Positions 616 to 55,679 of a stretch of DNA of 64,000 bases are shown piece after piece; the stretch's first letter is position 1, and every line of letters starts with the position of its first letter. Under the pieces are notes generated by a model, which worked only from the letters and a program-made list of their open reading frames with translations, was not told the DNA's origin and searched no databases. The stretch comes from Escherichia coli (lineage in GTDB: Bacteria; Pseudomonadota; Gammaproteobacteria; Enterobacterales; Enterobacteriaceae). A program made the translations under genes and the position numbers. The stretch lies in the NCBI RefSeq assembly GCF_048403405.1, contig NZ_CP183129.1; one strand, written 5' to 3'.

Positions 616-616
616 T

Positions 617-8618: not shown

Positions 8619-8657
8619 CAGTGCACTGGTAGCTGTTAAGCCAGGGGCGGTAGCGTG
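8619..8657 (+). promoter_or_regulatory. JUMPstart element with ops site (GGCGGTAGC), RfaH-dependent antitermination signal
   Basis: Sequence cagtgcactggtagctgttaagccaggggcggtagcgtg between galF and first O-antigen gene; ops core GGCGGTAGC visible. Confidence 0.6.
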
Positions 8658-8667
8658 GATTGATGGA

Positions 8668-9489: not shown

Positions 9490-9490
9490 A

Positions 9491-39734: not shown

Positions 39735-39929
39735 TTACAGCAACTGGTGAGGGCTGGCATAAGTTGCCGGTGTTTCGGTAGAGTCACGGTCATCCACCAC
39801 GCGGAGTGAATAACCGTTTTCAGCGGCCTTATTAATCAGTTCAGTGATATTAACACCATCAATGTCAACGACAATGTGCCCCATATCCAGCGCCTGTACG
39901 TTAACGCTGTCGGCTTCCAGTGTCATCAT
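39735..39929 (-). CDS. yeeW: Prophage protein YeeW
   Basis: 64 aa; start overlaps the cbtA reading-frame end (ATGA); CP4-44 synteny. Confidence 0.65.
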   Translation of the reverse strand: MMTLEADSVNVQALDMGHIVVDIDGVNITELINKAAENGYSLRVVDDRDSTETPATYASPHQLL

Positions 39930-40299
39930 TTCGCCTCCGGATACTTACCCAGGGTAATGTTATTTACCGTTCTGTAATTGTCGCGGGTCATCAGGCCGGT
40001 CGCCCTGCGAGCCCGGAGGATATCGATGCTGTTTATTAACTGAGAGCGGGTACAGGCGCTGAATCCCGGCTGGTCGGTAGCACCAGCGCGTATTTTTCCA
40101 CGAGAAAGTTCACCGCATCACACAGTGAAATGCCTGCCTCAATATGCTGCTCAATCACACGTTCATCGGCAAAAGGTGTGTCATTCTGTGTGAGGCCATA
40201 GTGCTGGTCCAGCAGTCGGGACAGCAGTATCTGCCAGATTTCAACAGGAGACGGGCGAGAACTGGCCGCCTGCCCGGGTAATACAGGTAATGTTTTCAT
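39926..40299 (-). pseudogene. cbtA: CbtA (YeeV) toxin gene, frameshifted
   Basis: N-terminal 72 aa match CbtA; intact ORF ends after 87 aa, while the remainder of the toxin is readable in another frame down to the yeeW start. Confidence 0.65.
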
Positions 40300-40387: not shown

Positions 40388-40756
40388 TTAATTTTTCATT
40401 TCGGGCGTCGGATAAACAGCCAGATAAACGTAACCACAACTGCTGAGGGTATCGGCTTTGCAGGTCAGCCCTTTTGCATACAGCGTGACGGTATGCTGAT
40501 GGCGGGGATTCAGTTCACCGCTGGTGAGCATGAGTTCCAGTTGTTTCATCAGCAGCGGAAAGGCCTGGTCCAGGTGGTACGCATCTGCATCGCTGAACAG
40601 GCCTCTGATACCGGCGCGGTCGGCAAGGTAATGCAGGCGGTTACCCTCCTGCACCAGACGTGCCCCGAAACAGGGCGTCACGGTGCAGGGCAGCCCCCAC
40701 CAGGGGCGGTCGTGATTGTCGTCGGGAAGTGTTGTCCCGGGGAGTGTGTCTGACAC
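40388..40756 (-). CDS. cbeA: CbeA (YeeU) antitoxin
   Basis: 122 aa; recalled CbeA sequence; directly upstream of cbtA. Confidence 0.85.
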   Translation of the reverse strand: MSDTLPGTTLPDDNHDRPWWGLPCTVTPCFGARLVQEGNRLHYLADRAGIRGLFSDADAYHLDQAFPLLMKQLELMLTSGELNPRHQHTVTLYAKGLTCKADTLSSCGYVYLAVYPTPEMKN

Positions 40757-41605: not shown

Positions 41606-42085
41606 TCAGTCGATGATGCGCATAATGGCGCTGCATTCCGGATGCTGCAGGGCGTAATCCCGCAGCCGGTAATAATGGACCGTCATGGCATAACACTCTG
41701 TACGACAGGCATGATGACTGTACGTCATCAGACAGGCAGCAATGCCGGCGGCTTCCGGGCTCATTTCAGCGCGGTTACCGTTCATGACATTGAACAGTAC
41801 CCATGTTTCGTCATCATCGTCATCCGGTTCGGGTACCATAAATGCCCCGCCGTTGTTCAGGGTGTACAGATTCCAGATACCACCGCAGTAGTCTTCGCAC
41901 AGACGGTCCATCCAGCCGAAGACACGGGGCTCCAGGGTCACCCACTGTGGAATGAGGCCAAAATGCTGCGGCCAGAAGCTGATGCGCTGTTCATCAGGGA
42001 CGAGGCTGGCAACCAACTGAGGCGGATTATTCTCTGGTGTTGTAGCTGAATAAATTGTGGGGGTATTCTGAGAAACGGTTTTCAT
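41606..42085 (-). CDS. Antirestriction protein (YfjX/YafX, KlcA/ArdB-like)
   Basis: 159 aa; acidic DDDDDE stretch; conserved prophage position upstream of radC-like gene. Confidence 0.7.
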   Translation of the reverse strand: MKTVSQNTPTIYSATTPENNPPQLVASLVPDEQRISFWPQHFGLIPQWVTLEPRVFGWMDRLCEDYCGGIWNLYTLNNGGAFMVPEPDDDDDETWVLFNVMNGNRAEMSPEAAGIAACLMTYSHHACRTECYAMTVHYYRLRDYALQHPECSAIMRIID

Positions 42086-42166
42086 GAGATAACTCCTTAA
42101 ATAACAAATAAATGTGTGTTTTTCAGGAACGAAAGCTGAATGATTCCCTCACTCAGGGAAACGGCA

Positions 42167-42988
42167 TCAGCGCAGGCTCTCCAGCATCGTTTCTGCCATC
42201 ACCCACAATGCGCGATTGAGCTTAATGTCGGTATCAATGCTGTGAATGGCCCGGGTATGGATACGTTTTCCTCTGGCACTGCGACCGGAAATCCCGCCTT
42301 TCAGCATATTCTCCTGGATGGTCTGATATGCGCTCCACAGGTCCTTACCGTAATCCTCCCGGCGTCGCGGCGTCAGAATGTCGGCGGTGGTGACGGGCTG
42401 ATGTTCGTCACCATAACGGTAAGTCAGTGCCGCCTGTGCCAGCGCCTGGCGTGCCGGTGGCGGCAGGACCAGCGACTGCATGGCATCACGCTTCTCCTCT
42501 ATCCGGTCAAACACGCCCACCACCTCGTAAGCCCCTTCGATAACTTTCTCCACTACATTTCCCCGGTGTGGAACACGCACTTCCCCCAGAGACTGGCCAC
42601 AGACGCACCCGTTCTGGCAGACGAACCTGAAGTAACCCGGCAGCATCTGGTAGCTGGAGGTACCGTCATGAGAGTTGAGCAGAATAATTTCAGGGACATG
42701 TTCTCCGTTTATCTCTCCGGCCCGCCGCAGACGCAGCATGTGTTTTGTGTATCCCCGGCGGCCCGGGTCGCGCACACGGGTCTGGCAGGCGAAGAACGGC
42801 TGAAAGCCTTCCCGCTGCAGATTTTCCAGGACGGTAATGGTGGGAATGTACGCATACCGTTCACTGCGGGAGATGTGCCGGTCTTCCCCAAAAATACTGG
42901 GTACATGGCGTATCAGTTCTTCATGTGTCAGCGGACGGTCACGGCGTATCTGGTTTGCAGCATAACCAAAACGACTGGCTAATCGCAT
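42167..42988 (-). CDS. DUF932-family prophage protein (YfjQ/YafZ-like)
   Basis: 273 aa; recalled family and conserved position in CP4-type elements. Confidence 0.6.
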   Translation of the reverse strand: MRLASRFGYAANQIRRDRPLTHEELIRHVPSIFGEDRHISRSERYAYIPTITVLENLQREGFQPFFACQTRVRDPGRRGYTKHMLRLRRAGEINGEHVPEIILLNSHDGTSSYQMLPGYFRFVCQNGCVCGQSLGEVRVPHRGNVVEKVIEGAYEVVGVFDRIEEKRDAMQSLVLPPPARQALAQAALTYRYGDEHQPVTTADILTPRRREDYGKDLWSAYQTIQENMLKGGISGRSARGKRIHTRAIHSIDTDIKLNRALWVMAETMLESLR

Positions 42989-43043
42989 ACTTTGCTCCTT
43001 ATCGGTGGTTAAGATTTACTGGTGCAATAAATGAAAAAAGCCG

Positions 43044-43076
43044 CGTCTCCCGGAGAAGACGCGGCCTGACGGGTGA
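43044..43076 (-). terminator. Rho-independent terminator closing the cargo module
   Basis: Minus-strand hairpin gccgcgtcttctccgggagacgcggc followed by TTTTTTCATTT. Confidence 0.5.
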
Positions 43077-43208
43077 AATGAATAAGGTTTATTGTCTGAG
43101 AGGCCTTTCACTGGCGAGCCACGCATTAAGCGGCTTTCCGGTAACAATGGCTGGGGCTGTATTTACCTTTGATATTAATAATGTGCAGAGAAACGCATGG
43201 TTTACTCC

Positions 43209-43619
43209 TTAGATTTTAAGTTTGTCCTGGGCTACAACGACAGGTTTTCCGGATGTGTCGATGACTCCTACCGTCGGTACGCCATTTTTGATTTCGAAGA
43301 ACGGTTTGTTGCTACCTGAGCACAGTTGATTGTCCCCGTATTCAATCATTTGTGCTTTCCCGGTTTTCAGGTTAACTACCGAGACAGTGTAGTCGTAGCA
43401 CCAGGCACCACCACGCTCAAGCACGAAAACATAGCTGTTATCTTTATAGTTGAACTGATTCTTTGTCTGGCAATTCATACCGTCAATTTCGGTACAGGAA
43501 AACGCTTCTGTAGTATTAACGTATTTGATGTTATTTGGCAGTTTTACTTGTTTCGCAGTAGCGAAGACAGAGAACAGAATAGTTACAGCAACGAGTAAAG
43601 TTTTGATAAAAGTTTTCAT
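43209..43619 (-). CDS. Small secreted protein, 4 Cys, unknown function
   Basis: 136 aa; signal peptide MKTFIKTLLVAVTILFSVFATA; low GC. Confidence 0.55.
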   Translation of the reverse strand: MKTFIKTLLVAVTILFSVFATAKQVKLPNNIKYVNTTEAFSCTEIDGMNCQTKNQFNYKDNSYVFVLERGGAWCYDYTVSVVNLKTGKAQMIEYGDNQLCSGSNKPFFEIKNGVPTVGVIDTSGKPVVVAQDKLKI

Positions 43620-43634
43620 GATAGACTCCTTAAA

Positions 43635-44123
43635 TTAGTTAACCGCAGCTACGTAGTTTTTCACCAGATACGCGAATTCATGCACGCCAATTTCACCGAA
43701 CCAAACCAGGTAGGCCGGGTCATCTAAACCAAAGTAACGGTAGCCAACAACTTCATGGGTTTTTGGGTTATAGAGTGTTACGATAAAGTCCCAGCCGCAG
43801 GTATTGGCTTTGCAACCGTCGCCCTGGAACCAGACTGTACCGTTAATGTTTACTGGCGTGATACCTCCACCAGGGCCATCCATATAGCCGCCTTTACCGA
43901 ACATGCCGCTCAGTCCGACCGGTTTTAATGCTTTGTCGATAGCGGCTTTGTAGGTAGCGTCACCTTCGTACAACTCGTACGTTGATGGACACGCTCCAGG
44001 TTGTTCAGCCCAGGCTTCCGGGTTACAACTAAGAGCTTGTTTTACGGTAGCCGCTTCTGCGTTAAAGTTAAAGCCCGTGAACAGAACCGCCAGAAATAAC
44101 ATAAGGGTATGTAAACGTTTCAT
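43635..44123 (-). CDS. Secreted protein, possible Ivy-like lysozyme inhibitor (variant CKxxxCG motif)
   Basis: Start chosen at MKRLHTLMLFLAVLFTGFNFNAEA signal peptide; ORF is open in frame up to 44426 with a second signal-like segment; GDGCKANTCGWDFIV resembles Ivy CKPHDCG region. Confidence 0.5.
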   Translation of the reverse strand: MKRLHTLMLFLAVLFTGFNFNAEAATVKQALSCNPEAWAEQPGACPSTYELYEGDATYKAAIDKALKPVGLSGMFGKGGYMDGPGGGITPVNINGTVWFQGDGCKANTCGWDFIVTLYNPKTHEVVGYRYFGLDDPAYLVWFGEIGVHEFAYLVKNYVAAVN

Positions 44124-44453
44124 TGTAAATATTCTTCCGTTGTAAATGGCGCTGGAAAATTTCTCATCAGTGAAACCTTCCGGAAGTTTCCCCCCCTTGT
44201 ATGATGTATATCGCCAGTATTTTATTTCATCCCGGCTGTAATTTTTATATTCCCCGGCACGTGCAATAACGCTGACCAGAGATATAAGGCTCATTAATAA
44301 CTTTACAGGTAATTTCATAATTAAATTTCCAGTGAGTGAATTGACAGGTGAGGGGTAAAACTTTCTCTCAGGTAATATATATCTGAAAATATTTTCAATA
44401 ACACCAGACAGGAAAAACACCACCACAGGCGGTGGCGTTTCTTTGGGGCGTCT

Positions 44454-45524
44454 TTATTTAATCCGGGCCATCGCGTTTCTCAGTGCCAAATCTGCCTCTT
44501 CCGTTATATCCAGGCTTTTCTGCAATACCGCCTCTGACCGGGTCAGTGCCTGACGTGCTGCCAGCGGTTTCCGGATATGCTCCATCGCCAGCATCGTGTC
44601 TTCATAGCCCTGCTGACGCCAGGCGTCGGTATGTGCCGATGTAAAACTGAGCAGACCGCCGCTGTTGCCACCATCACCTGCATATTTCAGCCTTTTCCGG
44701 GGACGGATCTCAAGGATTGTGGTGTCCGGAAAAGCCTGGCGATCCCATAAAGAACCGTCACTCAGATGCGTCACAATCACCATATTGCATCCGGCATCGA
44801 CCAGAGGCGTCACAGGGGTATTTCCCTGCATATTTCGCCATCCTCCCATACCACCATCACCGAACATTGTCCCCTGAACCTCACGGGGACGGAACAGCAG
44901 GGGCAGCGCGGCTGACGCAAGCAGAGCCTCTTTCTGCTGTCCGCGGGGCAGGCTCTGGATATGCTGAAAAACGGCGTTTTTCGTGGTTCCGACACCCAGT
45001 TCAGCACGAATGCAGTCAATAATATCCTGCATGCCCCCTTCTGTGGGGTACAGCGACACATACAGCGGTAGCCCGTCTGCCAGAGCATCAGTATCAAGAT
45101 AATGATCCATCAGCGCTGTCAGGGGCTCATCTGACAACAACGGCTGAGCCATCAGATTGTCAAACCCGTTGATTGTCGATATATGGCGAAGAAGCGTCGT
45201 AAGCAGTGCTCCTGCACGTCCGGGGATCTGGCAGAGGTTCATTGCCTGGAACAATTTTTTCAGCAATGAAAAGTAAACCAATCTGTTTACCGACAGCACC
45301 TGATTATTCCCCAGATGATCCCAGAGCGCCTCCAGGCGTACGGCAGCTTCTGACAGATCGGTAGAGGCCGCGATAATGGCACCATTGAATGCGCCAATGC
45401 TGGCCCCTGAAACCATGCTGATCTGTGTACCACACTCTGCCAGTGCCTTAACCACTCCCGCCTGATAAGCGCCCACCGCCCCGCCACCGGACAGCACCAG
45501 CCCCGTTTTCATTTCTGTACTCAT
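44454..45524 (-). CDS. Patatin-like phospholipase
   Basis: 356 aa; oxyanion GGGAVGAYQAG, nucleophile GxSxG (GASIG), catalytic DGG (FGDGGMGG); start ATG overlaps upstream stop (ATGA). Confidence 0.8.
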   Translation of the reverse strand: MSTEMKTGLVLSGGGAVGAYQAGVVKALAECGTQISMVSGASIGAFNGAIIAASTDLSEAAVRLEALWDHLGNNQVLSVNRLVYFSLLKKLFQAMNLCQIPGRAGALLTTLLRHISTINGFDNLMAQPLLSDEPLTALMDHYLDTDALADGLPLYVSLYPTEGGMQDIIDCIRAELGVGTTKNAVFQHIQSLPRGQQKEALLASAALPLLFRPREVQGTMFGDGGMGGWRNMQGNTPVTPLVDAGCNMVIVTHLSDGSLWDRQAFPDTTILEIRPRKRLKYAGDGGNSGGLLSFTSAHTDAWRQQGYEDTMLAMEHIRKPLAARQALTRSEAVLQKSLDITEEADLALRNAMARIK

Positions 45525-46426
45525 GCAGCCCCCTTCTGAAATATTTCATCGACCATACTTTCAGAGAGGCGTTCTGCAGAGCAGAGGCGAGGCATGCGAA
45601 CCGGTAAGTGTTCTGCAGCCTGCGTGGTTGACCAGATCACCGGATGCTGCTCTTCACTGCACCAGTCTCCCAGCCAGTTAATCGCGTCATGCCACTCGTT
45701 ATCTGCCTGCTCCCGGCCCTGACCACCAAGCCAGTCCAGAGTGTTCAGACGCACGGTTGCACTACCGCCACTCTCCTGTGCCATCTGCGTTAATGCTTTA
45801 TGTCTGAGAATATCCAGTAGCTGGTTAACCTGGCCTGTTTCGCTCTGACGTATCACATCACCAAACGCGCCCCAGCGAAGCTCTTCAAGTGCCACATAAC
45901 AACGTCCGGCAGGGGAAAATGACGCATATCGCCCGGCGCTCCACCATGAGAATATCTGCTCAAGATGTAACTGCGCCCGCTGAACCTGGTCAACACGGTG
46001 GAGTTTTTCTTCAAGATGATTCAGTTTATGGTGAACCTGATCGGCCAGGGTGAGTAACTGCTCCCGCGTATCTGCGGAATAATGCGCCAGCCTGGCTGTA
46101 TCACTGACCAGTGAACTGACCCTGTCGTTTACCCGGGTAATCGCGTAGTTTGTGGTGGCAAGTGACGTTGTCATCTCCGTCAGCCAGCGCAGGGACGCCT
46201 CAACGCCCTGTGCAAGCGACGCATTGATGGCATTCTGCCGTGCAGCGCCTTCGCCGGTCAGCCCCTCTTTTAAACGCCGGAAGAACGTGCGCTCTCCGGC
46301 CGTGCGGATATGCTCCTGTGCAACATCGATTCCGTTTGCGAAATCAACCACAAATTTTTCAGGAAGACAGGTGAGTACCTGACATACCCGGTTATCAGCA
46401 ATTTGTTGAATAAATGGTGAAGTCAC
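45521..46426 (-). CDS. Hypothetical 301-aa alpha-helical protein coupled between the GTPase and the phospholipase
   Basis: GTG start overlaps stop of upstream gene, own stop overlaps patatin ATG; no recognised motif. Confidence 0.55.
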   Translation of the reverse strand: MTSPFIQQIADNRVCQVLTCLPEKFVVDFANGIDVAQEHIRTAGERTFFRRLKEGLTGEGAARQNAINASLAQGVEASLRWLTEMTTSLATTNYAITRVNDRVSSLVSDTARLAHYSADTREQLLTLADQVHHKLNHLEEKLHRVDQVQRAQLHLEQIFSWWSAGRYASFSPAGRCYVALEELRWGAFGDVIRQSETGQVNQLLDILRHKALTQMAQESGGSATVRLNTLDWLGGQGREQADNEWHDAINWLGDWCSEEQHPVIWSTTQAAEHLPVRMPRLCSAERLSESMVDEIFQKGAA

Positions 46427-48819
46427 AGCATTGTCTCCAGCTCTTCCCTCAGCGCCTTACTGTCAGTAATGAGCTCAGGAACCCTTTCATTTAATGCCTG
46501 AAGTCGCCCGGTAAGCCGTTCCTGCGCCTGCTGATCGCGTTTATGATCTTCAGAGCTCTGAATCAGCGTGTTACGCAGTTGTTCAACTTTCTCCCTGAAT
46601 GCGCAGAAAAAGGCATCGATTTCCTGGCGGACGGGCTGGTTAATATCCTGCTCAATGGATGCCTGCAGCTCCCCGAAATATGCCCGGGTCAGTGACATAA
46701 CTTCCTCTCTGACCTTGTTGATATTGATCACGCTGCGACTCACATCCTCGTCATAGTTTTCCCAGCCCAGGTCACTGGTGCCAAACCATCGACAAACGGT
46801 TCCCCATACGCCACTCTGCCGACGGCGACGGGTGACGGTCTCCGTTCTTTCCTCCATAAGCGCACTCAGATTTATTTTTACCGCGAGCCGGGTCTGTAAC
46901 TGGCTGACTGCCGGAAAACTGATTTTTACGGTAAAGCCCTCATCCTCCAGGCGGGCATTGATGCGACCGGCAATGTTTTCTGTGGCGTACAGGGCCGTGC
47001 CACGAAAACCTGTTTCAATCCCGCTGACGATTTTCTCCAGCTCAGGCCGGAACTGTGCTTCAGCCTCACGGTGCAGGCTGGTCACGGTCGATTCGATTTG
47101 CGTCATCAGTTCAAGGGCTTCCCTGCGATCACTGAATTTTATTTCGGGGCTGTCCGGGGCAAAATCTCGTTTCCTGTAATCCTCCCGGCCCTGGTTGTTG
47201 ATACCGGACCATTGAGAAATTTTCCCCCATAATCCGGACTGAGACCTTCGTTGTTCTGCGTCTTCTTCCTCCAGCATTTGCTGTTCTTTGCGTTTACCGC
47301 TTCTGAAATAGTCATTCAGCTCCTCTTCCAGTGAGGTGCAGACCCCCGTCAGTAATTCCCGGGTTTTAGTATCGATCTCCTCCATGGCCATTCTGACATC
47401 AGTGGTCATCTGCTCCTGACAGTCCGCGATTTCCCGGATATCCGCAAGCAGGCTGGTGATATGCGACTGCAGTGACTGAATGCTTTGCTGTAGCCCCTGA
47501 TGGCGTAACAACAGGTATTCACTGATATTTTCTGCATTCTGCATCAGTTTTGCGGCGGCAGAGTCAACCGCCAGTGCCGCAGCTCTGGAATGTGAGCTCT
47601 GTATGACTTCCGTTATCAGTTGATCGATAAGTGAGCCTTCCCACAGGTCTGTCGCCCCTTCAGTTGCCAGTTCACTGTCTTTACAGACGTATTCTTTTTT
47701 CATGCAACCGAAGGCACCTCTGATAAAATCATCGACCCAGGCTTCATCAACAGGAAGGGTTCCGTTTTTCCGTAACTCATGAAGCGCACGGTTAGCCAGG
47801 TATGCCTGGCGTGAGGATCCGGGATAAACGCGGGAGGCGGGCAGCACATCGCTGTTCAGCATTGCCGGAACTTTCTGGCGTACGGCATCTGCCCCATCGC
47901 CATTGCGGTCTTTCTCATCAAATTTATTGACCAGTACAAACAGGCGGCCGGCTGATACGTCAGCAATGGCATTAAGCTCTTTACGGACGTCTTCATCCGC
48001 TTTTGAGTTCATCTGGGTGTAATCCATCACAGCCAGAACCGCAGAGGCTTTCTGCAGTTGATCCCGCATCATCACTTCCATCTGCGGTTGTCCGGCCTCA
48101 TTAGGGCCGGGGGTATCCAGCAGTGTGAGTGTTCCCTGGCATGCATCCATCCCCACCAGATGGCTGAATTCCACGTCGATCACCGGCAGTTTCTGCACTT
48201 CTGCGTATTCATCAAAAGGAAATTCAGTCCCCATTGCCGCAGCAAGACGAACCAGATCGTTTAACGATGCCAGTCCGGTAAAGATTTCCTCCTCCCCGTG
48301 GTATTCATTTTTGAGCCAGCCATCATCCGTCAGAATATCCAGCAGTTCGCGGGTATCCCCGGTTTGCTGCAGGGTCTGTGCGACCTGCTGTCCTGCCGGG
48401 GTGGCGAGTTTTTCCTGCAGTGTGATTAATAAATTGCGGACAGGCTGAATATGTTCCAGATGGAGAACCGGCTCAGTTTTTCCGGGAACGTGGCGGATGA
48501 GCGTCGGTACAGAGGTCATGGGGCGGTTACGGTTAGGCAGAATTTCCTGCCCCACAATGGCGTTGATGGTGGTTGATTTGCCTGCTTTCATCGTGCCGAC
48601 AACAGCCAGCACCATCTCCCTGCGGGCGGTTTTGATTTGTTCGCCCTCCAGCTCCTCAATTCTTTTCAGTGCTTTCTGTTTATCAAAAAGCAGTCTGTTT
48701 TCGTTCTTACTGTCAGATAACACATCTGGCTCCTCAACCATTTGCCGGAGCAGATTAATGTTCAGTTGCAAAAGTCGGTCGGCTTCATCACAAAGCAGGG
48801 CGATGTTCTTTTCGTGCAT
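46423..48819 (-). CDS. Dynamin-like large GTPase (bacterial DLP)
   Basis: 798 aa; P-loop GTMKAGKST, DTPG, NKFD in the first 300 aa, then about 500 aa helical/coiled-coil-like region; RBS GGAAGG upstream of ATG. Confidence 0.75.
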   Translation of the reverse strand: MHEKNIALLCDEADRLLQLNINLLRQMVEEPDVLSDSKNENRLLFDKQKALKRIEELEGEQIKTARREMVLAVVGTMKAGKSTTINAIVGQEILPNRNRPMTSVPTLIRHVPGKTEPVLHLEHIQPVRNLLITLQEKLATPAGQQVAQTLQQTGDTRELLDILTDDGWLKNEYHGEEEIFTGLASLNDLVRLAAAMGTEFPFDEYAEVQKLPVIDVEFSHLVGMDACQGTLTLLDTPGPNEAGQPQMEVMMRDQLQKASAVLAVMDYTQMNSKADEDVRKELNAIADVSAGRLFVLVNKFDEKDRNGDGADAVRQKVPAMLNSDVLPASRVYPGSSRQAYLANRALHELRKNGTLPVDEAWVDDFIRGAFGCMKKEYVCKDSELATEGATDLWEGSLIDQLITEVIQSSHSRAAALAVDSAAAKLMQNAENISEYLLLRHQGLQQSIQSLQSHITSLLADIREIADCQEQMTTDVRMAMEEIDTKTRELLTGVCTSLEEELNDYFRSGKRKEQQMLEEEDAEQRRSQSGLWGKISQWSGINNQGREDYRKRDFAPDSPEIKFSDRREALELMTQIESTVTSLHREAEAQFRPELEKIVSGIETGFRGTALYATENIAGRINARLEDEGFTVKISFPAVSQLQTRLAVKINLSALMEERTETVTRRRRQSGVWGTVCRWFGTSDLGWENYDEDVSRSVININKVREEVMSLTRAYFGELQASIEQDINQPVRQEIDAFFCAFREKVEQLRNTLIQSSEDHKRDQQAQERLTGRLQALNERVPELITDSKALREELETML

Positions 48820-48880
48820 TATTTAACCTTCCTAAGACGCATTTTCATGACAACCACGGAGGAGGTCATTTACTACAAAC

Positions 48881-48949
48881 GATCGTTTATAACGATCGAT
48901 ATGATAGTAACGATCGATGTATTCTATTAACTTGAGAAACACAACGCAA
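48881..48949 (-). promoter_or_regulatory. Sigma70-like promoter (TTGCGT-N17-TAGAAT) followed by three GATC sites in AACGATCG repeats; candidate Dam/OxyR phase-variation switch
   Basis: Minus strand: TTGCGT, 17-nt spacer, TAGAAT, then CGATCG x3 within about 35 bp, about 60 bp upstream of the GTPase ATG. Confidence 0.5.
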
Positions 48950-49036
48950 GGGGACAACCCGGGTATGGCTGCGTTTGCATAGTGTTTTCATGGAGTTAAA
49001 AATCTGTAACAACAGCCTGGTACATCACCACCGGGT

Positions 49037-49909
49037 TCAGAAGAAAATCCAGTTCCATACCGCGCGGGCAACAGAGACCACCGAGTCACGGACGGCACGC
49101 AGAACCGTGCGTGCAACAGAGGCAATACAGGCGCTCTCCGCCGTGTCAAATATCCGGTCCACCGCACCGGTAAACTGTTCACGGGCCTGAGCGCGGACAG
49201 ATTCCGTGCGCAGCTCGTCCTGCAGGCGGGTCATCAGGGGACTGGCGGCATGGTCGGGAAGTGCTGTCATGAGCGCACTGACCAGCGTATCCAGTTCCCA
49301 GCCGGTGCGGGCCGATACGGCAACAACCCGATGTACGGGCCGGAACAGACGGAATACCGCCTCCGTTTTTTCGCGAATGTTCTGTGCCTGTGCGGGAGAA
49401 GGCTGAATACCGGCCATATCCCATTCATGGCAGGGCTCCGTTTTATCGGCCTGCATCACCACAAACAGTACCCGCTGATGTCCCCGGTGCAGGATGTGTC
49501 GCCAGAAATACTCATCCACAGACAGGGCACGGTCATCGGCTTTAATCAGCCACAGTACCAGGTCCAGTTCGGGCAGAATGTCACGGTACAGGGCTTCATA
49601 CTCTGCATCCCTGTCCCGGCTCTCGCCCACCCCGGGCAGGTCAGTGATAACCATGCTGTGACCATGGCCATTCAGACGGAAGCGCTGCACTTCCCGGGTG
49701 CCGGCGTGAACATCACTGACCGGGGTGATCTCCCCCTGAAACAGCGCATTACAGAGTGAGGATTTACCGGCCCCGCTTTTACCCATAATGCCAGGCACGG
49801 GTTCGTGACTGGTGAGTTTGCGCAGATGTTCCAGGATGTGACGGGAAAGTGAGTAAGGCAGGGAGGAGAGCGGTTTTTCAATTGCCTCAATGGCATCAGA
49901 CGGATTCAT
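49037..49909 (-). CDS. yeeP: YeeP/YfjP/YkfA-family prophage GTPase
   Basis: Start chosen at MNPSD; P-loop GIMGKSGAGKSS, DLPG, MQADK; conserved CP4-type backbone gene. Confidence 0.7.
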   Translation of the reverse strand: MNPSDAIEAIEKPLSSLPYSLSRHILEHLRKLTSHEPVPGIMGKSGAGKSSLCNALFQGEITPVSDVHAGTREVQRFRLNGHGHSMVITDLPGVGESRDRDAEYEALYRDILPELDLVLWLIKADDRALSVDEYFWRHILHRGHQRVLFVVMQADKTEPCHEWDMAGIQPSPAQAQNIREKTEAVFRLFRPVHRVVAVSARTGWELDTLVSALMTALPDHAASPLMTRLQDELRTESVRAQAREQFTGAVDRIFDTAESACIASVARTVLRAVRDSVVSVARAVWNWIFF

Positions 49910-49992
49910 ACATGTATTCCCGGTGAAAAAAGACAAAACCCCGCGCACCGGAAAGGTGGCGGGGGATTCACGGAAATAATATCTGTCTGAAA

Positions 49993-51156
49993 TTATCTGG
50001 AATCGATTTGGCTGTTCTGCCTGGTTGCCACCAAATCATGGTACGCCTGCTCAATCATTTCATTCAGCAGTTTTTTTGGGAGGACACCACGACTTCGGGC
50101 AATACTTTCAAGCTGTTTGTGGATTTTTCCGGACAGTTTCAGAGGGACGGAACCATCAGCACGTTCATCACGCCTTTTTTGTTGCTCCCGGGCACTTTTC
50201 AGCTCATCAAGAAGAATCGCTTTATGCTGAATCCTGGGGGCCTGGAAGGAGACCTGCGTAAACTTCGCTCTGTTCCGTCTGGGATTACTTTCCAGTAAAA
50301 ACTGTACCTGTTGCTCATTCCAGCCCTCCCAGTTATCAAACGTGGCGCAGGCAAACCAGTATTTCTGCTCCGGGGTAAGGGGATTCAGCGGGGTTCCCAC
50401 ACACCGGATCTGCATGGCGTTCCATAACCAGTCACACTGTTCACTGTCCCTGCTGTCCACCCACGAAAAGGGGGAGGGGTAATCATTGTTTATGCTGGCC
50501 CATTCAGAGAATACTGAGTTGATAATCGTCCTCGTAGCCTCTGGTCCGGATTTCAGCAGGTAACTGGAGCAGAACCATATAATTTCACGGTAGATTTTAT
50601 CCGGATGCACGGTGCGCATCGGCTTTTCTCTGGGACCGGCAATCTTCGGTTGCGATGGAAACCCCGTGGCAAACCGCAGATGTTCCGGGGGCATTCCTGA
50701 ACGTTTTTCAGGAATGGGTGTGAGTCCTGCGTTTCTGGTCTTTTCCGCTTGTCCGGTATTGCCTCCGGCCGGAGTGTTGTCGGGAGTATCTTCCGGAGGC
50801 GAGGTGTTTTCATTAGTTGGGGGAACAACAGCAGAACTGTCCATCTCCGGAATGGGTTGAGGGGCATAATCACTGTGGTAGCCAGGGGAAAGCGTTAAGT
50901 CCCGAAGGGTGACATCAGGTTCCGGGCAGTGAGTGCCACCGGGAGTGAACGGGAGTTGTTGCTTTTGGGAGAAAAATGTATTGTGAATGCGGGTATACAG
51001 CTGGAACAGAAAAAAATAAGATGCCCGTGGTTCTTTTTTTAACCACTGTGTATATTCCTCTATGGCACCGAGCTGTTGTTTGTGCCGTTTTACAGTATCG
51101 ATATACGGACAGCTGGTGCAGATATCATCCAGTTCCTTTCCCACAATACACCTCAC
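49993..51156 (-). CDS. Hypothetical prophage protein with Pro-rich linker
   Basis: 387-aa ORF directly upstream of the yeeP-like gene; no confident family assignment; true start uncertain. Confidence 0.45.
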   Translation of the reverse strand: MRCIVGKELDDICTSCPYIDTVKRHKQQLGAIEEYTQWLKKEPRASYFFLFQLYTRIHNTFFSQKQQLPFTPGGTHCPEPDVTLRDLTLSPGYHSDYAPQPIPEMDSSAVVPPTNENTSPPEDTPDNTPAGGNTGQAEKTRNAGLTPIPEKRSGMPPEHLRFATGFPSQPKIAGPREKPMRTVHPDKIYREIIWFCSSYLLKSGPEATRTIINSVFSEWASINNDYPSPFSWVDSRDSEQCDWLWNAMQIRCVGTPLNPLTPEQKYWFACATFDNWEGWNEQQVQFLLESNPRRNRAKFTQVSFQAPRIQHKAILLDELKSAREQQKRRDERADGSVPLKLSGKIHKQLESIARSRGVLPKKLLNEMIEQAYHDLVATRQNSQIDSR

Positions 51157-53071
51157 CTGCTTTTCTCACATTTGCAGATTTTAAAAAAGCAAACAAAAAC
51201 CTCCGTACATGATGTACAGAACAATCTACCAGGTAGTGGCGTCAGAAAACCTCCGGGCCGCCTGCACTTTCCGGAATGCGCCGGTTATGAAAAACCGGAA
51301 ATTCAGTCTCTGTTGTAAGATGTACCCTCTGATACTACGTTTTCTCTGTGTATTTAACTCACTGTATTTATTGTCTTTTTAAGCTTGACTGATATTCTCC
51401 GGTCATAGTGTGCCGGATATACATCCCGTAAACTTCTCATTTTTATATAAAAATACCTGCACTCTCTTCAGCGCATCTGTCTCCTTTAAGTAAAAAATGT
51501 TTTCACGTATTGCTGTAAATTCATTTTAAATCAGTATATTACCTTGATATTGCTGTCTCCTGGTTTGATGCGTAATCGTTCTGCCTTTCTGGATGATTCT
51601 GGTGCTTCCGGGTGCATTCTCCTCTGCACATGCAACAGTTCGTCATCGCCACGCTCCCAAAAAGCATATAAAAACGAATCGAATTTGATATTTTTTTCAA
51701 TCGTTTTTCATAGGAATTTCGTAGGGTATTCTCCGCTATAACCTCCATATTTGCTGTCTTTTTCTTCATAAATCGTATGCAATGTAGCCTGTCTGTCAAG
51801 ACCTCTTCTCTGCTGTTGAGGAGACGATCTCATTTTTGGTCTTTTCCGGGAGAGAGGCTGTCAGATGAGCGAGCCGGATTTACTGTCAGAGGTACACCCC
51901 GTAGCAGACCTGTGCTCCCATTTCCGCGATCCGGAACCAACAACACCCTACGGTTAATACCATTTGAAGCGTCAGGTACTGCAGGAAGTTCCCCCCTGCG
52001 CGGACATCGGTTCCTGCCGACATCTCACAATACGGCCAGACTGTCATGCAGTAACACCCGCATGCGGTCTGCGGTTTTAAGCGCACTCTCCCGTTTTCAG
52101 TGCACCGATAATGCGTCATAGTAAGTCTGGGGGAAGTTACGGAATGCCTGTTAAGTGGTGCCGTGGGTGGAGACAGCTTACTTTTCTACAGCAACTGCAG
52201 TCATTCAGGATGATCAGGAGATATTCTGTCAATGTCACGATCCTGCCATTTTCGTACCCGCTAAGATACTTCCGTTACTGATGCTGTCCGCTTTTCACCA
52301 TTTCATCCTCACTGACAGGCGTTGCGTTTTGGGTCATCACCACAGCTTTACGTTTCTCTTTTAACCGGTAACGCTCTCCTTTGATATTCAGCGTGGTTGA
52401 GTGATGCAGCAGTCAATCCAGGAGCGCTGTTGTCCGGCAACCACCATATCAACTTCTTCCCGGGTGTGGCGGAGAGGTGGTATCCTGGCTGAGTTTCGAA
52501 GCGAACCGTTCTTTTTGACGGGCGCATTTTACGTCCGGGCTGAATGTAGTAACGCGGCATGGAACGTCGGCCCGTATACCATTGCCTTAATCTCCGCAAA
52601 GATAACCTCGTCATTCCGGACATTCTCTGCCAGGCATATGTCGATGTAATCCATAAACGATTTCAGCTTACCCCTTTTGTGGCCAGTCTTTCTGGCTGGC
52701 GGTTCAGGGGATGTTTTCTGGTTATCGTGTACCACAAAGCAGGGATATTGCCCCGATAGTCACATTTCAGATTGATCGCGGTCTGAAGATGTGGCACTGA
52801 GGTAACGTGCTGGTGTCACTGGTATTGCTGAAGTTATGGTTTTTCGGGGTCAGGTGAGCCTGTTGTGTGTATGCTTTTTGTTCAGGTCAGAGGGGGACTG
52901 TGTGGACAGCGGCTTTTGTCTCCGGGCATTCACGCCTGAACGATGAATGCGATTTTCAGCAATATTTGTCTTTGTGACACTCTCTGGTTGAGAAGCTAAT
53001 GCGCGCCCCTGTTTCCACAGAGAATGTACTGCACCCATTTTGTTGGACGATGAAATGGAATAGCCCCTGAT

Positions 53072-53593
53072 ATGTCAAAGCCAAAATACCCTTTTGAAAA
53101 GCGCCTTGAAGTCGTGAATCACTACTTCACTACTGATGATGGTTACAGGATCATCTCGGCACGTTTTGGTGTCCCCCGAACCCAGGTCAGGACATGGGTT
53201 GCCCTCTATGAAAAACATGGAGAAAAAGGTTTAATTCCCAAACCTAAAGGTGTTAGTGCTGATCCAGAGTTGCGTATTAAGGTCGTGAAAGCTGTGATCG
53301 AGCAGCACATGTCCCTTAATCAGGCTGCTGCTCACTTTATGCTTGCTGGTAGTGGTTCTGTAGCCAGGTGGCTGAAGGTTTATGAAGAGCGCGGAGAAGC
53401 TGGTTTACGCGCGCTCAAGATTGGCACCAAAAGAAACATTGCAATATCAGTTGATCCAGAAAAAGCGGCATCAGCATTGGAGCTGTCAAAAGACCGACGT
53501 ATTGAGGATCTTGAAAGGCAAGTTCGATTTCTTGAAACGCGGCTTATGTATCTAAAAAAGCTGAAAGCCTTAGCTCATCCCACGAAAAAGTGA
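53072..53593 (+). CDS. insJ: IS150 OrfA
   Basis: 173 aa; recalled InsJ sequence (MSKPKYPFEKRLEVVNHYFTTDDGYRII). Confidence 0.9.
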   Translation: MSKPKYPFEKRLEVVNHYFTTDDGYRIISARFGVPRTQVRTWVALYEKHGEKGLIPKPKGVSADPELRIKVVKAVIEQHMSLNQAAAHFMLAGSGSVARWLKVYEERGEAGLRALKIGTKRNIAISVDPEKAASALELSKDRRIEDLERQVRFLETRLMYLKKLKALAHPTKK

Positions 53594-54441
53594 AAGTACT
53601 CAACGAGCTAAGGCAGTTTTATCCTCTTGATGAGCTTCTCAGGGCTGCGGAGATACCGCGCAGTACGTTTTATTACCATCTAAAGGCTCTCAGCAAGCCT
53701 GACAAGTATGCGGACGTTAAAAAGCGTATTGGTGAGATTTATCACGAGAATAGAGGCCGATACGGATACCGTAGGGTAACGCTGTCTCTTCATCGAGAAG
53801 GGAAACAGATTAACCATAAAGCTGTTCAGCGCCTGATGGGAACCCTCTCACTTAAAGCAGCGATTAAGGTCAAGCGATACCGCTCTTACAGAGGAGAGGT
53901 AGGGCAAACCGCCCCTAATGTTCTCCAAAGAGATTTCAAGGCTACGCGGCCAAACGAGAAGTGGGTTACCGATGTTACTGAATTTGCAGTCAATGGGCGC
54001 AAGCTGTATTTGTCTCCAGTAATAGATCTCTTCAACAACGAAGTTATTTCTTACAGCCTTTCGGAAAGACCAGTGATGAACATGGTTGAGAATATGCTCG
54101 ATCAGGCATTCAAAAAGCTTAATCCTCACGAGCATCCTGTTCTGCACTCTGACCAGGGATGGCAGTATCGTATGAGAAAATATCAAAATATTCTTAAAGA
54201 ACATGGTATTAAACAAAGCATGTCCAGAAAAGGCAATTGTCTGGATAATGCTGTGGTGGAGTGTTTCTTTGGAACCTTAAAGTCGGAGTGTTTTTATCTT
54301 GATGAGTTCAGTAATATAAGCGAACTGAAGGATGCTGTTACGGAATATATTGAATACTACAACAGCAGAAGAATTAGCCTGAAATTAAAAAGTCTGACTC
54401 CAATTGAATATCGGAATCAGACCTATATGCCTCGTGTTTAA
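53590..54441 (+). CDS. insK: IS150 OrfB transposase (DDE)
   Basis: 283 aa; recalled InsK sequence; overlaps insJ stop. Confidence 0.9.
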
Positions 54442-54983
54442 CTGTCCAACTTTTTGGGGTCAGTACAGAATGAGGCTTGCCATCAGCCGAAACATCAGTA
54501 TTCCACGCCATACAGACGGCGCCTGACCATGTGCTGATGCAGGTAAAATGTTTCACTACAACTGTTCGGGTTGCTATGCAACGAAACAGCGATTCTCACG
54601 ATCTTTAACTGCAACGTTTTTCCGCCTGAAAGCTGACTGCCTCCTGCTGAGGTGGGAGGCTATGATTCAGTGCGTTTATAGTCTCCGGGGTATGCATGTA
54701 CCGGAGCATACCATTTCTGGTGGATAACAAGCCGGCACATTCAGACTGCAGTGAAGATGGAGGCACCTGGTTGTGAAGAACGTTTCTGCACGTGGCTGCT
54801 TCGCATCATCAATGGTATTCATACCCGCTCAGAAATGACCGGGTGCTGAAGCCCTCCGTTATCGCGCAGTATAATGACGTATATGATCTGTGGACGAGTG
54901 AGCGGCGTGCCTGATGTACGCCGCTATTACTGTATTTTACCACAGGGCTGGTTTTCTGCTGCCAGCCCTGTGGTTCTCAGACA

Positions 54984-55601: not shown

Positions 55602-55679
55602 GGGGGATAACAGGCAGCAGAGCGCCGCCGGCAGGCCGGAGATTGCGTCTGCTGTGGGCGAAGGGTTAGTGGTTAAAAA

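What the first reader, a model, noticed from the sequence alone, without database searches (positions are those of the whole stretch)
42989..49036. About 6 kb cargo at the yeeP-to-DUF932 junction where K-12 carries flu (Ag43)
The backbone order (AlpA-like, YeeP-like GTPase, DUF932, antirestriction, RadC-like, YeeT, CbeA, CbtA, YeeW) matches CP4-type elements, but the slot between the YeeP-like GTPase and the DUF932 gene holds the dynamin/patatin operon plus two secreted proteins instead of flu/yeeR. A strong terminator hairpin at about 43044..43076 closes the module. This looks like a cargo-exchange hotspot.
Basis: inference. Interest (0 to 1): 0.55.

Follow-up and report, generated by a model that had tools for sequence, protein, structure and literature searches.

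The report
Swappable island cargo behind Ag43-type switch
This 6 kb stretch is interchangeable cargo in a common E. coli genomic island: a dynamin-like GTPase, its partner protein, a phospholipase and two secreted proteins sit where strain K-12 carries the adhesin Ag43, and they appear to have kept Ag43's heritable on/off promoter switch, which has not been reported for these genes.

Summary
The window is E. coli, 100% identical to SMS-3-5, and the island sits at the chromosomal site of K-12 CP4-44. Between the YeeP-like GTPase stop (49037) and DUF932 lie a dynamin-like CrfC/RdcA paralog, a YjcZ/RdcB-like gene, a patatin lipase and two signal-peptide proteins.

The cargo is variable. At the same site other genomes carry agn43 plus other genes, truncated versions, or no island; K-12 CP4-57 has an empty 91-nt slot.

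Three corrections:
- The terminator (43038..43067) and 153 nt upstream of DUF932 are conserved backbone, not part of the module. The variable bay is about 43142..49034.
- The triad is not simply an alternative to Ag43. In 635 genomes it lies directly downstream of cah.
- The bay's left end (48881..48949) keeps an Ag43-type promoter and an OxyR site with three Dam GATC sites. It matches the OxyR consensus at 16/20 positions, against 14/20 for K-12 agn43. The same switch precedes different cargo in Citrobacter.

I infer heritable ON/OFF expression of the cargo. This fits published RNA-seq in which a matching five-gene cluster was the strongest difference between two lineages of one strain.

The triad is a mobile three-gene module found in several genera. 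Its function is untested; membrane-acting phage defence is the leading guess.

The parts
49037..49909 (-). YeeP/YfjP-like GTPase gene, the left backbone anchor. Homology to other island variants ends 2 nt past its stop codon.
   Evidence: RefSeq 'GTPase family protein' on the identical SMS-3-5 sequence. 96-97% nt identity to K-12 yeeP and to the GTPase genes of L004, L011 and L012, ending at window 49034/49035.
43142..49034 (-). Variable cargo bay (5.9 kb): switch, triad and small-gene pair.
   Evidence: Breakpoints from blastn against four other island variants. Alternative contents documented.
48921..48949 (-). Ag43-type sigma-70 promoter: -35 TTGCGT (48944..48949), 17-nt spacer, -10 TAGAAT (48921..48926).
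   Evidence: Aligns with the promoter hexamers upstream of cah, agn43 and K-12 flu. Coordinates. Both hexamers are unchanged in six haplotypes.
48882..48918 (-). Predicted OxyR binding site, ATCGATCGTTACTATCATATCGATCGTTATAAACGAT, starting 2 nt after the -10. It contains or abuts three Dam GATC sites at 48912..48915, 48894..48897 and 48881..48884.
   Evidence: 16/20 match to the OxyR consensus, against 14/20 for K-12 agn43 in the same register; 0 of 2000 shuffles reach 16. GATC spacing is 18/13 nt, against 19/13 nt in agn43, cah and Citrobacter. Coordinates.
48822..48880 (-). 59-nt leader with Shine-Dalgarno AGGAAGG (48827..48833). It is unique to this arrangement.
   Evidence: No homology to the agn43/cah leaders or to the cah-dynamin spacer, except for the last ~15 nt. 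No Rfam match.
46423..48819 (-). Dynamin-like GTPase (798 aa), a paralog of chromosomal CrfC/YjdA/RdcA.
   Evidence: NF007368 CrfC model, full length, 556 bits, below the 1146-bit cutoff. 33% identity over 744 aa to K-12-lineage CrfC, 9e-121. G motifs GTMKAGKS75, DTPG235 and NKFD298. Weak match to the Nostoc BDLP structure 2j68.
45521..46426 (-). YjcZ/RdcB-like partner protein (301 aa). Its start overlaps the dynamin stop by 4 nt.
   Evidence: Pfam PF13990, 4.7e-70. 30% identity to RdcB, 2e-37.
44454..45524 (-). Patatin-like phospholipase (356 aa) with intact catalytic motifs. Its start overlaps the RdcB-like stop by 4 nt.
   Evidence: GGGAVG13, GASIG40 and DGG223. Homologs carry PF01734. Weak hits to CBASS lipase and RssA models.
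44418..44434 (-). Weak terminator-like hairpin after the patatin gene (7-bp stem). Probably leaky.
   Evidence: Scanner hit. The published five-gene co-regulation implies read-through.
43635..44123 (-). Secreted Ivy-fold protein (162 aa from MKRLHTL...). It is annotated as the C-terminal part of a 227-aa ORF, 43635..44318.
   Evidence: 12 of 17 aligned family members hit Pfam Ivy PF08816. AF2 model pLDDT 84. The top eight Foldseek PDB hits are all Ivy, TM 0.62-0.73. The 75%-identical homolog is called from this Met. The loop reads CKANTC and lacks the Ivy His.
44124..44318 (-). In-frame 65-codon N-terminal extension with its own signal-peptide-like segment.
   Evidence: Sequence. A separate homolog, P0159, matches residues 1-63 only.
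43209..43619 (-). 136-aa signal-peptide protein, an orphan largely confined to E. coli. It starts 15 nt after the Ivy-like gene.
   Evidence: phrog_8968, 2.6e-45, function unknown. 44 homologs, nearly all named ones E. coli. No Pfam or PDB hit. AF2 pLDDT 64 with no fold match.
43038..43067 (-). Strong intrinsic terminator. Backbone feature that insulates DUF932 from the bay.
   Evidence: Conserved in E2865 and C8 despite different upstream genes. An analogous hairpin lies in the empty yfjP-yfjQ spacer.
42989..43141 (-). Conserved DUF932 leader (backbone).
   Evidence: Homology with L003, L004, L011 and L012 begins at 43141.
42167..42988 (-). DUF932 gene, the right backbone anchor.
   Evidence: RefSeq annotation. 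74% aa identity to the Citrobacter braakii counterpart.

Best explanation
The interval is the cargo bay of a CP4-44/CP4-57-type genomic island.

Boundaries. A ~1 kb conserved GTPase gene bounds the bay on the left. A conserved terminator plus DUF932 leader bounds it on the right. Many paralogous islands, within and between genomes, share these flanks. Homologous recombination in the flanks can therefore swap whatever lies between them. (The variation is shown; the recombination mechanism is inferred.)

Contents here. The bay holds three separable pieces.
1. A diverged copy of the agn43 regulatory cassette: a sigma-70 promoter followed at once by an OxyR site containing three Dam GATC sites.
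2. A translationally coupled triad: a dynamin-like GTPase (CrfC/RdcA paralog), a YjcZ/RdcB-like partner and a patatin phospholipase.
3. A two-gene pair of exported proteins, one Ivy-fold and one 136-aa orphan.

Proposed regulation (inferred by analogy with agn43). When the GATCs are unmethylated, OxyR binds and blocks transcription (OFF). When Dam methylates them, OxyR cannot bind and all five genes are transcribed up to the backbone terminator (ON). Each state is inherited, so a clone contains ON and OFF lineages.

Where the triad lies downstream of cah, I found no promoter or terminator between them. It should then ride on cah's own switch.

Proposed function (inferred, weakest step). The GTPase/partner pair senses or remodels the inner membrane and controls the lipase. 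The most likely role is a phage-defence or abortive-infection type membrane effector.
For: Variability of the bay:
- Searches show at least six different fillings of the bay, including one at the identical chromosomal site.
- Sharp shared breakpoints at 49035 and 43141.
- A median of 3 and up to 15 matching places per genome.

Switch:
- The promoter hexamers and three GATCs align with K-12 flu, agn43 and cah.
- The core is 68% identical, against 38-49% in the flanks.
- The OxyR consensus match is 16/20, better than agn43 itself, and 0 of 2000 shuffles reach it.
- The same motif lies between a GTPase (only 60% aa identity) and a DUF932 gene (74% aa identity) in Citrobacter braakii, with different cargo.
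- In six E. coli haplotypes no substitution hits the -35, the -10, a GATC or a consensus OxyR position.
- No promoter or terminator was found in the cah-dynamin spacer.

Expression:
- In E. coli MP1 a five-gene cluster containing dynamin-family, RdcB-family and phospholipase genes was the most strongly up-regulated set in one strain lineage against the other. This held in both media and did not track prophage induction (PMC12922286).

Triad as an autonomous module:
- The same three overlapping genes occur in Pectobacterium, Pseudomonas, Vibrio, another E. coli context and Klebsiella/Enterobacter plasmids.
- Neighbours include BrxR and SIR2+DUF87.
- The catalytic motifs are intact.

Small-gene pair as a separate module. 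GC content is 41-49%, against 52-55% for the triad.
Against: - There are no methylation, OxyR-binding or single-cell expression data for this locus. The switch is inferred from sequence.
- GATC-I is 1 nt closer to GATC-II than in agn43, and the promoter is 1 nt closer to the site.
- Across genomes the 69-nt core is not more often perfectly conserved than the adjacent 69 nt: 722 against 973 genomes.
- The avoidance of functional positions is only marginal, P about 0.07.
- I could not confirm that the MP1 cluster carries this exact upstream region. Its authors attribute the effect to lysogeny.
- PADLOC gives only weak partial hits, LeoBC at 8.6e-5 and lipase effector at 4e-5.
- No copy was found in 50,697 phage records.
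- The defence role rests on neighbourhood in two loci.
Confidence: 0.6

Rival explanations
1. The promoter and GATC cluster are a non-functional relic left when an Ag43-family gene was lost from the bay. The five genes are then expressed constitutively, by read-through from the GTPase gene, or under some unrelated regulator.
For: - The triad also occurs downstream of cah, so a deletion history is conceivable.
- The core is no better conserved than its flank across genomes.
- No terminator separates the GTPase gene from the bay.
Against: - This is not a simple deletion. The type-A and type-B triads are 95% identical, while the switch cores are only 68% identical and the leader is unique.
- The OxyR match is better than in agn43.
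- The hexamers, GATCs and consensus positions are intact in every haplotype examined.
- They are also intact in Citrobacter, despite deep divergence of the flanking genes.
- The all-or-none lineage difference in MP1 fits a switch.
Confidence: 0.2
2. The triad is not a defence system. It is a horizontally acquired analogue of RdcA/RdcB that feeds into c-di-GMP and biofilm control through DgcE or another MASE1 protein. It would be co-expressed with, or in place of, the aggregation factor Ag43. The lipase would be an accessory membrane-remodelling enzyme.
For: - Full-length homology to CrfC/RdcA (33%) and RdcB (30%) with the same gene order and overlap.
- RdcA/RdcB activate DgcE by direct contact with its MASE1 domain (PMC6510439).
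- The triad is physically linked to Ag43/Cah and to their switch.
Against: - The score is below the equivalog cutoff, 556 against 1146 bits.
- The patatin gene is invariably attached in distant genera where Ag43 is absent.
- Neighbours in Pseudomonas and Vibrio are defence-type genes.
- No diguanylate cyclase lies nearby.
Confidence: 0.2
3. The triad acts like LeoABC of ETEC. On this view it is a dynamin-type machine that promotes outer-membrane-vesicle release or toxin export, which would make it a virulence or fitness factor.
For: - It is a dynamin family protein on a pathogenicity-island-type element.
- There are weak LeoBC and LeoA profile hits in the G domain.
- LeoA is a dynamin-like protein linked to vesicle secretion (PMC4159319 abstract).
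Against: - The LeoBC hit covers only 61 residues at E = 8.6e-5, and LeoA gives no hit for the dynamin-like protein.
- There is no paired second dynamin.
- The partner is YjcZ-like rather than Leo-like.
- The triad is common in commensal and environmental strains.
Confidence: 0.08
4. The five genes are part of the conserved island backbone rather than cargo.
For: They are present in about 35% of complete E. coli genomes with high identity.
Against: Islands with 97%-identical arms at the same chromosomal site carry entirely different genes in the bay. Empty and alternative fillings also exist.
Confidence: 0.01

Closest known systems
agn43 (flu) Dam/OxyR phase-variation switch of E. coli K-12
   Same: - A sigma-70 promoter is followed at once by an OxyR site holding three GATC sites.
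- The register from the CTAT element through GATC-II and GATC-III is identical.
- It sits in the same place, immediately downstream of the YeeP-like GTPase gene of a CP4-type island.
   Different: - It drives a cytoplasmic/membrane GTPase-lipase operon and two small exported proteins instead of an autotransporter adhesin.
- The core is only 61-68% identical.
- GATC-I and the promoter are each shifted by 1 nt.
- The leader is short (59 nt) and unrelated, whereas agn43 has a long one.
- Function is untested.
RdcA (YjdA/CrfC) and RdcB (YjcZ), the chromosomal GTPase pair that activates diguanylate cyclase DgcE
   Same: Full-length homology of both proteins, the same order and the same 4-nt overlap.
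   Different: - 30-33% identity, below the NCBIfam equivalog cutoff.
- A patatin lipase is fused to the operon as a third, translationally coupled gene.
- It is carried on islands and plasmids.
- No evidence of a DgcE link.
Eleos/'Dynamins' (LeoA-LeoBC) anti-phage system and B. subtilis DynA
   Same: A dynamin-superfamily GTPase on mobile elements. Some loci have a defence-island-like neighbourhood.
   Different: - PADLOC Leo models match only marginally.
- There is one dynamin rather than a pair or a two-headed protein.
- It has a YjcZ partner and a lipase.
- No phage data exist.
CBASS type I with patatin effector (CapV)
   Same: A patatin-family lipase with intact catalytic motifs, placed as the last gene of a small mobile operon.
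   Different: There is no CD-NTase or cyclase gene. The lipase matches the CBASS lipase model only at 19.5 bits, against a cutoff of 200.
Ivy (inhibitor of vertebrate lysozyme) family
   Same: The fold matches (Foldseek top hits 4ps6, 1uuz, 1xs0, 1gpq). Relatives carry Pfam Ivy. It has a signal peptide and a disulfide-bounded loop.
   Different: Its own sequence gives no Pfam hit. The loop is CKANTC rather than CKPHDC, so the key His is missing. It is encoded on an island as a pair with a 136-aa orphan.
CP4-44 / CP4-57 / CP4-6 cryptic-prophage-like islands of K-12
   Same: The backbone genes and their order. For CP4-44, the chromosomal site too.
   Different: The contents of the bay differ. 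K-12 CP4-44 has additionally lost DUF932 and the antirestriction gene.

Membership tests
CP4-44/CP4-57-type island backbone | YeeP/YfjP-like GTPase, then DUF932, antirestriction, RadC/JAB, DUF987 (YeeT), CbeA/CbtA and YeeW, in this order. | tested here: met
   RefSeq annotation of the 100%-identical SMS-3-5 region. ORFs. 97.9% identity to K-12 from yeeS into the chromosomal flank. cbtA is frameshifted.
CP4-44/CP4-57-type island backbone | The interval between the GTPase and DUF932 varies among islands that share the flanks. | tested here: met
   Six fillings documented. Breakpoints at 49035 and 43141.
Ag43-type Dam/OxyR phase switch | A sigma-70 promoter with an OxyR binding site directly downstream of, or overlapping, the start region. 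| tested here: met
   TTGCGT-17-TAGAAT, with the OxyR-consensus site (16/20) beginning 2 nt after the -10.
Ag43-type Dam/OxyR phase switch | Three GATC sites inside the OxyR site, with agn43-like spacing. | tested here: met
   Spacing 18/13 nt, against 19/13 nt in agn43, cah and Citrobacter. GATC-II and GATC-III are in identical register.
Ag43-type Dam/OxyR phase switch | OxyR binding blocked by Dam methylation, and GATCs protected from methylation in OFF cells. | not testable with these tools
   Needs EMSA or methylome data. None was found in the literature searched.
Ag43-type Dam/OxyR phase switch | Heritable ON/OFF expression of the downstream genes. | tested here: inconclusive
   There is indirect support only. 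A five-gene dynamin/RdcB/phospholipase cluster was the top difference between two lineages of E. coli MP1 in both media (PMC12922286). The identity of that upstream region was not verified.
RdcA/RdcB (CrfC-YjcZ) system | A protein that meets the curated CrfC equivalog threshold. | tested here: not met
   NF007368 scores 556 bits against a cutoff of 1146. 33% identity. It is a paralog, not an ortholog.
RdcA/RdcB (CrfC-YjcZ) system | A YjcZ-family partner encoded immediately downstream. | tested here: met
   PF13990, 4.7e-70, with a 4-nt overlap with the dynamin stop.
RdcA/RdcB (CrfC-YjcZ) system | Activation of DgcE through its MASE1 domain. | not testable with these tools
   Known for the chromosomal pair only (PMC6510439).
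Eleos / Dynamins (LeoA + LeoBC) defence system | Proteins that match the LeoA and LeoBC profiles. | tested here: not met
   PADLOC gives LeoBC at E = 8.6e-5 over 61 residues only, and no LeoA hit for the dynamin-like protein.
CBASS | A CD-NTase/cyclase gene next to the patatin effector. | tested here: not met
   No such gene in the operon. The CBASS lipase model scores 19.5 bits against a cutoff of 200.
Patatin-like phospholipase | Oxyanion GGGxxG, nucleophile GxSxG and catalytic DGG motifs. | tested here: met
   GGGAVG13, GASIG40 and DGG223. PF01734 on homologs.
Ivy (PF08816) | Ivy fold. | tested here: met
   AF2 pLDDT 84. The eight best PDB matches are all Ivy, probability 1.0.
Ivy (PF08816) | A direct profile match and the CKPHDC inhibitory loop with His. 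| tested here: not met
   No Pfam hit for its own sequence. The loop is CKANTC. 12 of 17 relatives do match Ivy.

The most novel reading that the evidence does not exclude
The Ag43-type Dam/OxyR cassette is not specific to adhesins. It is a portable epigenetic ON/OFF module fixed at the GTPase-proximal end of the cargo bay of CP4-type islands. It imposes heritable bet-hedging on whatever cargo lands there: Ag43/Cah, small secreted proteins in Citrobacter, and here a dynamin-RdcB-patatin system that would be a new, phase-variable membrane-acting anti-phage (abortive-infection) system. That system is present in over a third of complete E. coli genomes (type A in 36%, type B in 12%, overlap not determined).
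Probability: 0.3. Interest if true: 0.75.

Novelty: new variant of a known kind. Interest (0 to 1): 0.55.

Why it matters
- If the switch works, an uncharacterised GTPase-lipase operon is expressed in only a heritable fraction of cells. The type-A junction occurs in 1977 of 5426 complete E. coli genomes and the cah-linked form in 635; the overlap between the two sets was not determined.
- Bulk transcriptomics that compares clones would then report spurious 'regulation'. The published lysogen-versus-non-lysogen difference in strain MP1 may be such a case.
- Phenotypes of the operon (phage sensitivity, membrane integrity, biofilm) would be bimodal.
- It would extend the small set of Dam/OxyR switches (agn43, gtr, opvAB) to a new class of cargo.
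- It would show a regulatory cassette staying in place while the genes behind it are exchanged.
- The triad's conservation across Enterobacterales, Vibrio and Pseudomonas, on islands and plasmids, marks it as a functional unit worth testing.

Tried and rejected
- I tried to build an N-padded chimeric query to join distant anchors in one BLAST place. It was too long to submit. I used long reference queries and individual loci instead, so the catalogue is qualitative, not a census.
- IrmA relationship of the two small proteins: rejected. BLASTP E values were 0.29 and 6.9.
- Pfam, PDB-sequence and NCBIfam searches on the 227-aa and 136-aa proteins found nothing. PHROGs found nothing for the 227-aa protein and gave the 136-aa protein only an unannotated family. 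The Ivy link came only through a homolog alignment and a structure model.
- The structure of the 136-aa protein had low confidence and no fold match.
- Rfam, including IsrC, which covers the K-12 flu leader: no match in 42000..50200.
- Simple deletion of cah as the origin of this arrangement: rejected on divergence of the switch and leader.
- A test for stronger conservation of the switch core than of its flank across genomes was negative or uninformative.
- A GATC/OxyR motif upstream of the Pectobacterium triad: absent. The switch belongs to the island bay, not to the triad.
- Phage-borne copies of the patatin gene: none.
- Literature linking dynamin or patatin with Ag43, OxyR or phase variation: none found.
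- The ST131 methylome supplements had no relevant entries.
- The Wallecha 2002 and Fang 2012 papers are not held.
- The MP1 paper's supplementary tables are not held.

Full report
**1. What is there**

The window is E. coli. The interval is 100% identical to SMS-3-5 and to many other complete genomes. On the minus strand the ORFs are:
- YeeP-like GTPase, 49037..49909.
- A 798-aa dynamin-like protein, 46423..48819.
- A 301-aa YjcZ/RdcB-like protein, 45521..46426.
- A 356-aa patatin-like lipase, 44454..45524.
- An annotated 227-aa ORF, 43635..44318.
- A 136-aa ORF, 43209..43619.
- DUF932, 42167..42988.
- Then antirestriction, RadC/YeeS, YeeT, CbeA, a frameshifted CbtA, and YeeW.

The chromosomal genes to the right (tmaR, yeeA, sbmC, dacD, sbcB) are the ones that flank CP4-44 in K-12. 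K-12 aligns at 97.9% from inside yeeS out through that flank. So this island occupies the CP4-44 site.

It is a 13-bp stem with a T-run at 43038..43067, dG -24.5 kcal/mol, z = -5.4.

**2. Is it cargo?**

Yes. A 17-kb query spanning the island and its flank shows several states of this chromosomal site across 5426 complete genomes:
- the full island with this cargo, in 1741 genomes at 80% coverage or more;
- truncated versions, for example O157:H7, which lacks the dynamin gene;
- islands carrying Ag43-family genes;
- no island at all.

Strain JE86-ST05 has, at the same site, GTPase, agn43, an 838-aa gene, IrmA, DUF905, DUF932 and onward to YeeW. Its arms are 96.9% identical on the left and 97.6% on the right, the latter over 5.3 kb.

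Other fillings are:
- agn43 then DUF905, in ST1193;
- agn43, the 838-aa gene, IrmA and DUF905, in strain C8;
- flu and yeeR in K-12, where DUF932 and the antirestriction gene are also missing;
- an empty 91-nt spacer between yfjP and yfjQ in K-12 CP4-57.

Against all comparators, homology ends at window 49035, 2 nt past the GTPase stop, and resumes at 43141.

**3. The terminator is backbone**

The 153 nt upstream of the DUF932 start, hairpin included, are conserved in E2865 (patatin upstream) and in C8 (DUF905 upstream). The empty CP4-57 slot has its own hairpin plus T-run in front of yfjQ. The terminator therefore insulates DUF932 from whatever occupies the bay. It is not a feature of the dynamin module.

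**4. The triad and Ag43 are not alternatives**

In strain E2865, in an island at serX/ghrA, the order is GTPase, cah, dynamin, RdcB-like, patatin, a DUF905 remnant, then DUF932, with no small secreted-protein genes. This cah-dynamin junction is present in 635 genomes. The GTPase-dynamin junction of the window is present in 1977 genomes. The overlap between the two sets was not determined.

Ag43 homology stops at its stop codon, and dynamin homology starts about 10 nt before its ATG. Modules are therefore joined almost exactly at ORF boundaries.

**5. The retained switch**

Aligning the 215-nt GTPase-dynamin spacer with the regions upstream of K-12 flu, agn43 (C8) and cah (E2865) shows that homology is lost right after the GTPase stop. 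It reappears over the promoter and the three GATC sites, then ends just after the third GATC. Identity is 68% in that core, against 38-49% on either side.

The elements are:
- -35 TTGCGT, 48944..48949.
- A 17-nt spacer.
- -10 TAGAAT, 48921..48926.
- A 37-nt sequence, ATCGATCGTTACTATCATATCGATCGTTATAAACGAT, 48882..48918.
- GATCs at 48912..48915, 48894..48897 and 48881..48884.

The 37-nt sequence matches the OxyR consensus ATAGnTnnnAnCTAT-N7-ATAGnTnnnAnCTAT at 16 of 20 specified positions. The consensus is from my recollection of Toledano et al. 1994; PMC2909390 prints the half-site with a slightly different last block. The experimentally defined K-12 agn43 region scores 14 in the same register. 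None of 2000 shuffles of the spacer reaches 16.

From the CTAT element through GATC-II and GATC-III the register is identical to agn43. GATC-I and the promoter are each 1 nt closer.

In agn43 there is a single OxyR site that acts as a repressor, and methylation of its GATCs abrogates binding and allows expression (PMC2909390).

A pattern scan of one genome per species found the same motif in Citrobacter braakii and C. amalonaticus. In C. braakii it lies between a GTPase gene (60% aa identity) and, two small genes later, a DUF932 gene (74% aa identity). The first gene after the switch encodes a 154-aa signal-peptide protein rather than Ag43 or the triad. Non-coding conservation across that much divergence is the best sequence evidence that the cassette is under selection.

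Within E. coli the evidence is weaker:
- The core is not more often perfectly conserved than the adjacent 69 nt, 722 against 973 genomes.
- In six haplotypes all 14 variable sites avoid the hexamers, the GATCs and the consensus OxyR positions, P about 0.07.

In the cah-dynamin arrangement no promoter or terminator was detected in the 110-nt spacer. There the triad should be co-transcribed with the phase-variable cah.

**6. Independent expression evidence**

A 2026 RNA-seq study of E. coli MP1 (PMC12922286) compared a Kapi1 lysogen strain with a non-lysogen strain, using two colonies of each. A five-gene cluster that includes a dynamin-family protein, an RdcB-family protein and a phospholipase was 'the most strongly up-regulated' in the lysogen strain, in both media. 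Its regulation did not track the lytic-lysogenic decision.

The authors propose phage-dependent induction of a defence system and do not mention phase variation. An inherited ON state in one stock and an OFF state in the other would give the same result. I could not verify that the MP1 upstream region is this one, because the supplements are not held. I therefore count this as suggestive only. It also implies that all five genes form one transcription unit despite the weak hairpin at 44418..44434.

**7. What the cargo genes are**

Dynamin-like protein:
- It aligns end to end with CrfC/YjdA/RdcA, at 33% identity and 9e-121.
- It scores below the equivalog cutoff.
- The G motifs are intact.

RdcB-like protein: a YjcZ-family protein, 30% identical to RdcB.

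The chromosomal pair has no third gene; proP follows. It activates the diguanylate cyclase DgcE (PMC6510439).

Patatin-like lipase: it has GGGAVG, GASIG and DGG motifs.

The three genes overlap by 4 nt each. The same triad occurs in:
- Pectobacterium versatile, where the lipase is 64% identical and the triad sits at a different position of a CP4-like element, with no GATC upstream;
- Pseudomonas fluorescens, next to BrxR and an integrase;
- Vibrio parahaemolyticus, next to SIR2 plus DUF87/HerA;
- another E. coli context, near a phage Q gene;
- Klebsiella, Enterobacter and E. coli plasmids.

It was not found in phage genomes. PADLOC recognises no known defence system. The triad is therefore an autonomous mobile module of unknown function. 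Membrane-directed defence is plausible but rests on neighbourhood only.

**8. The two secreted proteins**

The 227-aa ORF has two signal-peptide-like segments. Homologs are proteins of about 150 aa that start at the second one.
- Twelve of 17 relatives match Pfam Ivy.
- The AF2 model has pLDDT 84.
- Its eight best PDB matches are all Ivy structures.
- The inhibitory loop reads CKANTC, so the His of CKPHDC is absent.

The 136-aa protein is an orphan largely confined to E. coli. It has no usable model.

The pair, with the same 15-nt spacing, occurs without the triad in another E. coli-type context. Its GC content is 41-49%, lower than the triad's 52-55%. It is a separate sub-module.

**9. Verdict**

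- The hotspot reading is supported, with corrections on the terminator, on the relation to Ag43, on the composite nature of the cargo and on K-12.
- The added value is the Ag43-type Dam/OxyR cassette at the fixed end of the bay, now wired to a GTPase-lipase operon. I found no report of this in the searchable literature.
- Confidence is high for the anatomy, moderate (about 0.6) for a working switch, and low to moderate for any specific function of the triad.

Noticed in passing
window 39926..40299 (cbtA) and 40388..40756 (cbeA): The CbtA toxin gene of the island's type IV toxin-antitoxin pair is frameshifted, while the CbeA antitoxin gene is intact. The RefSeq note is on the identical SMS-3-5 sequence; the ORF list shows only an 87-aa fragment.
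   Followed up: no
window 44124..44318: The annotated 227-aa ORF looks like an in-frame fusion. A 65-codon part with its own signal peptide has a separate homolog (P0159). It sits ahead of the Ivy-fold protein, which other genomes call from the internal Met.
   Followed up: partly
window about 48179..48338 (within the dynamin-like gene): 160 nt of the G-domain coding region are 77-78% identical in DNA to chromosomal crfC in essentially every E. coli genome. This is a possible source of read multi-mapping and a recombination substrate.
   Followed up: no
window 46423..48819, protein residues 528 and 669: There are two copies of an SG(L/V)WG...W motif in the stalk region of the dynamin-like protein. 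CrfC aligns with a related stretch at one of them. They may be membrane-insertion elements.
   Followed up: no
window 48880..48898: GATC-II and GATC-III lie in a perfect 19-nt palindrome, CGATCGTTATAAACGATCG. The terminator scanner flags it, but it is part of the predicted OxyR site.
   Followed up: partly
L013 (Citrobacter braakii ATCC 51113) 2500..6300: The same island backbone and the same switch motif, but the bay holds two small genes. The first is a 154-aa secreted protein, 53% identical to the C-terminal domain of long Ivy-like proteins such as P0144.
   Followed up: partly
H41, E. coli O157:H7 strain 3384, same chromosomal site: The island is truncated. Coverage starts inside the RdcB-like gene, and the dynamin gene, the switch and everything to their left are absent.
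   Followed up: no
L009 (E. coli contig) 1..10099: A 63%-identical triad lies near a phage antiterminator Q gene. A DUF3944 gene sits upstream, and an IS110 is inserted between the YjcZ-like and patatin genes.
   Followed up: no
L014 ('Collinsella sp.' MAG contig, 1560 nt): It carries an exact match to the enterobacterial switch pattern. It is probably a mis-binned enterobacterial contig.
   Followed up: no
window 49993..56000: To the left of the GTPase gene the island is also mosaic. Homology with Ag43-type islands covers only about 970 nt, the GTPase gene itself. A 383-aa gene with no family hit is followed by pseudogene fragments and an IS150 (53072..54441). No intact integrase is annotated in the matching SMS-3-5 region.
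   Followed up: no
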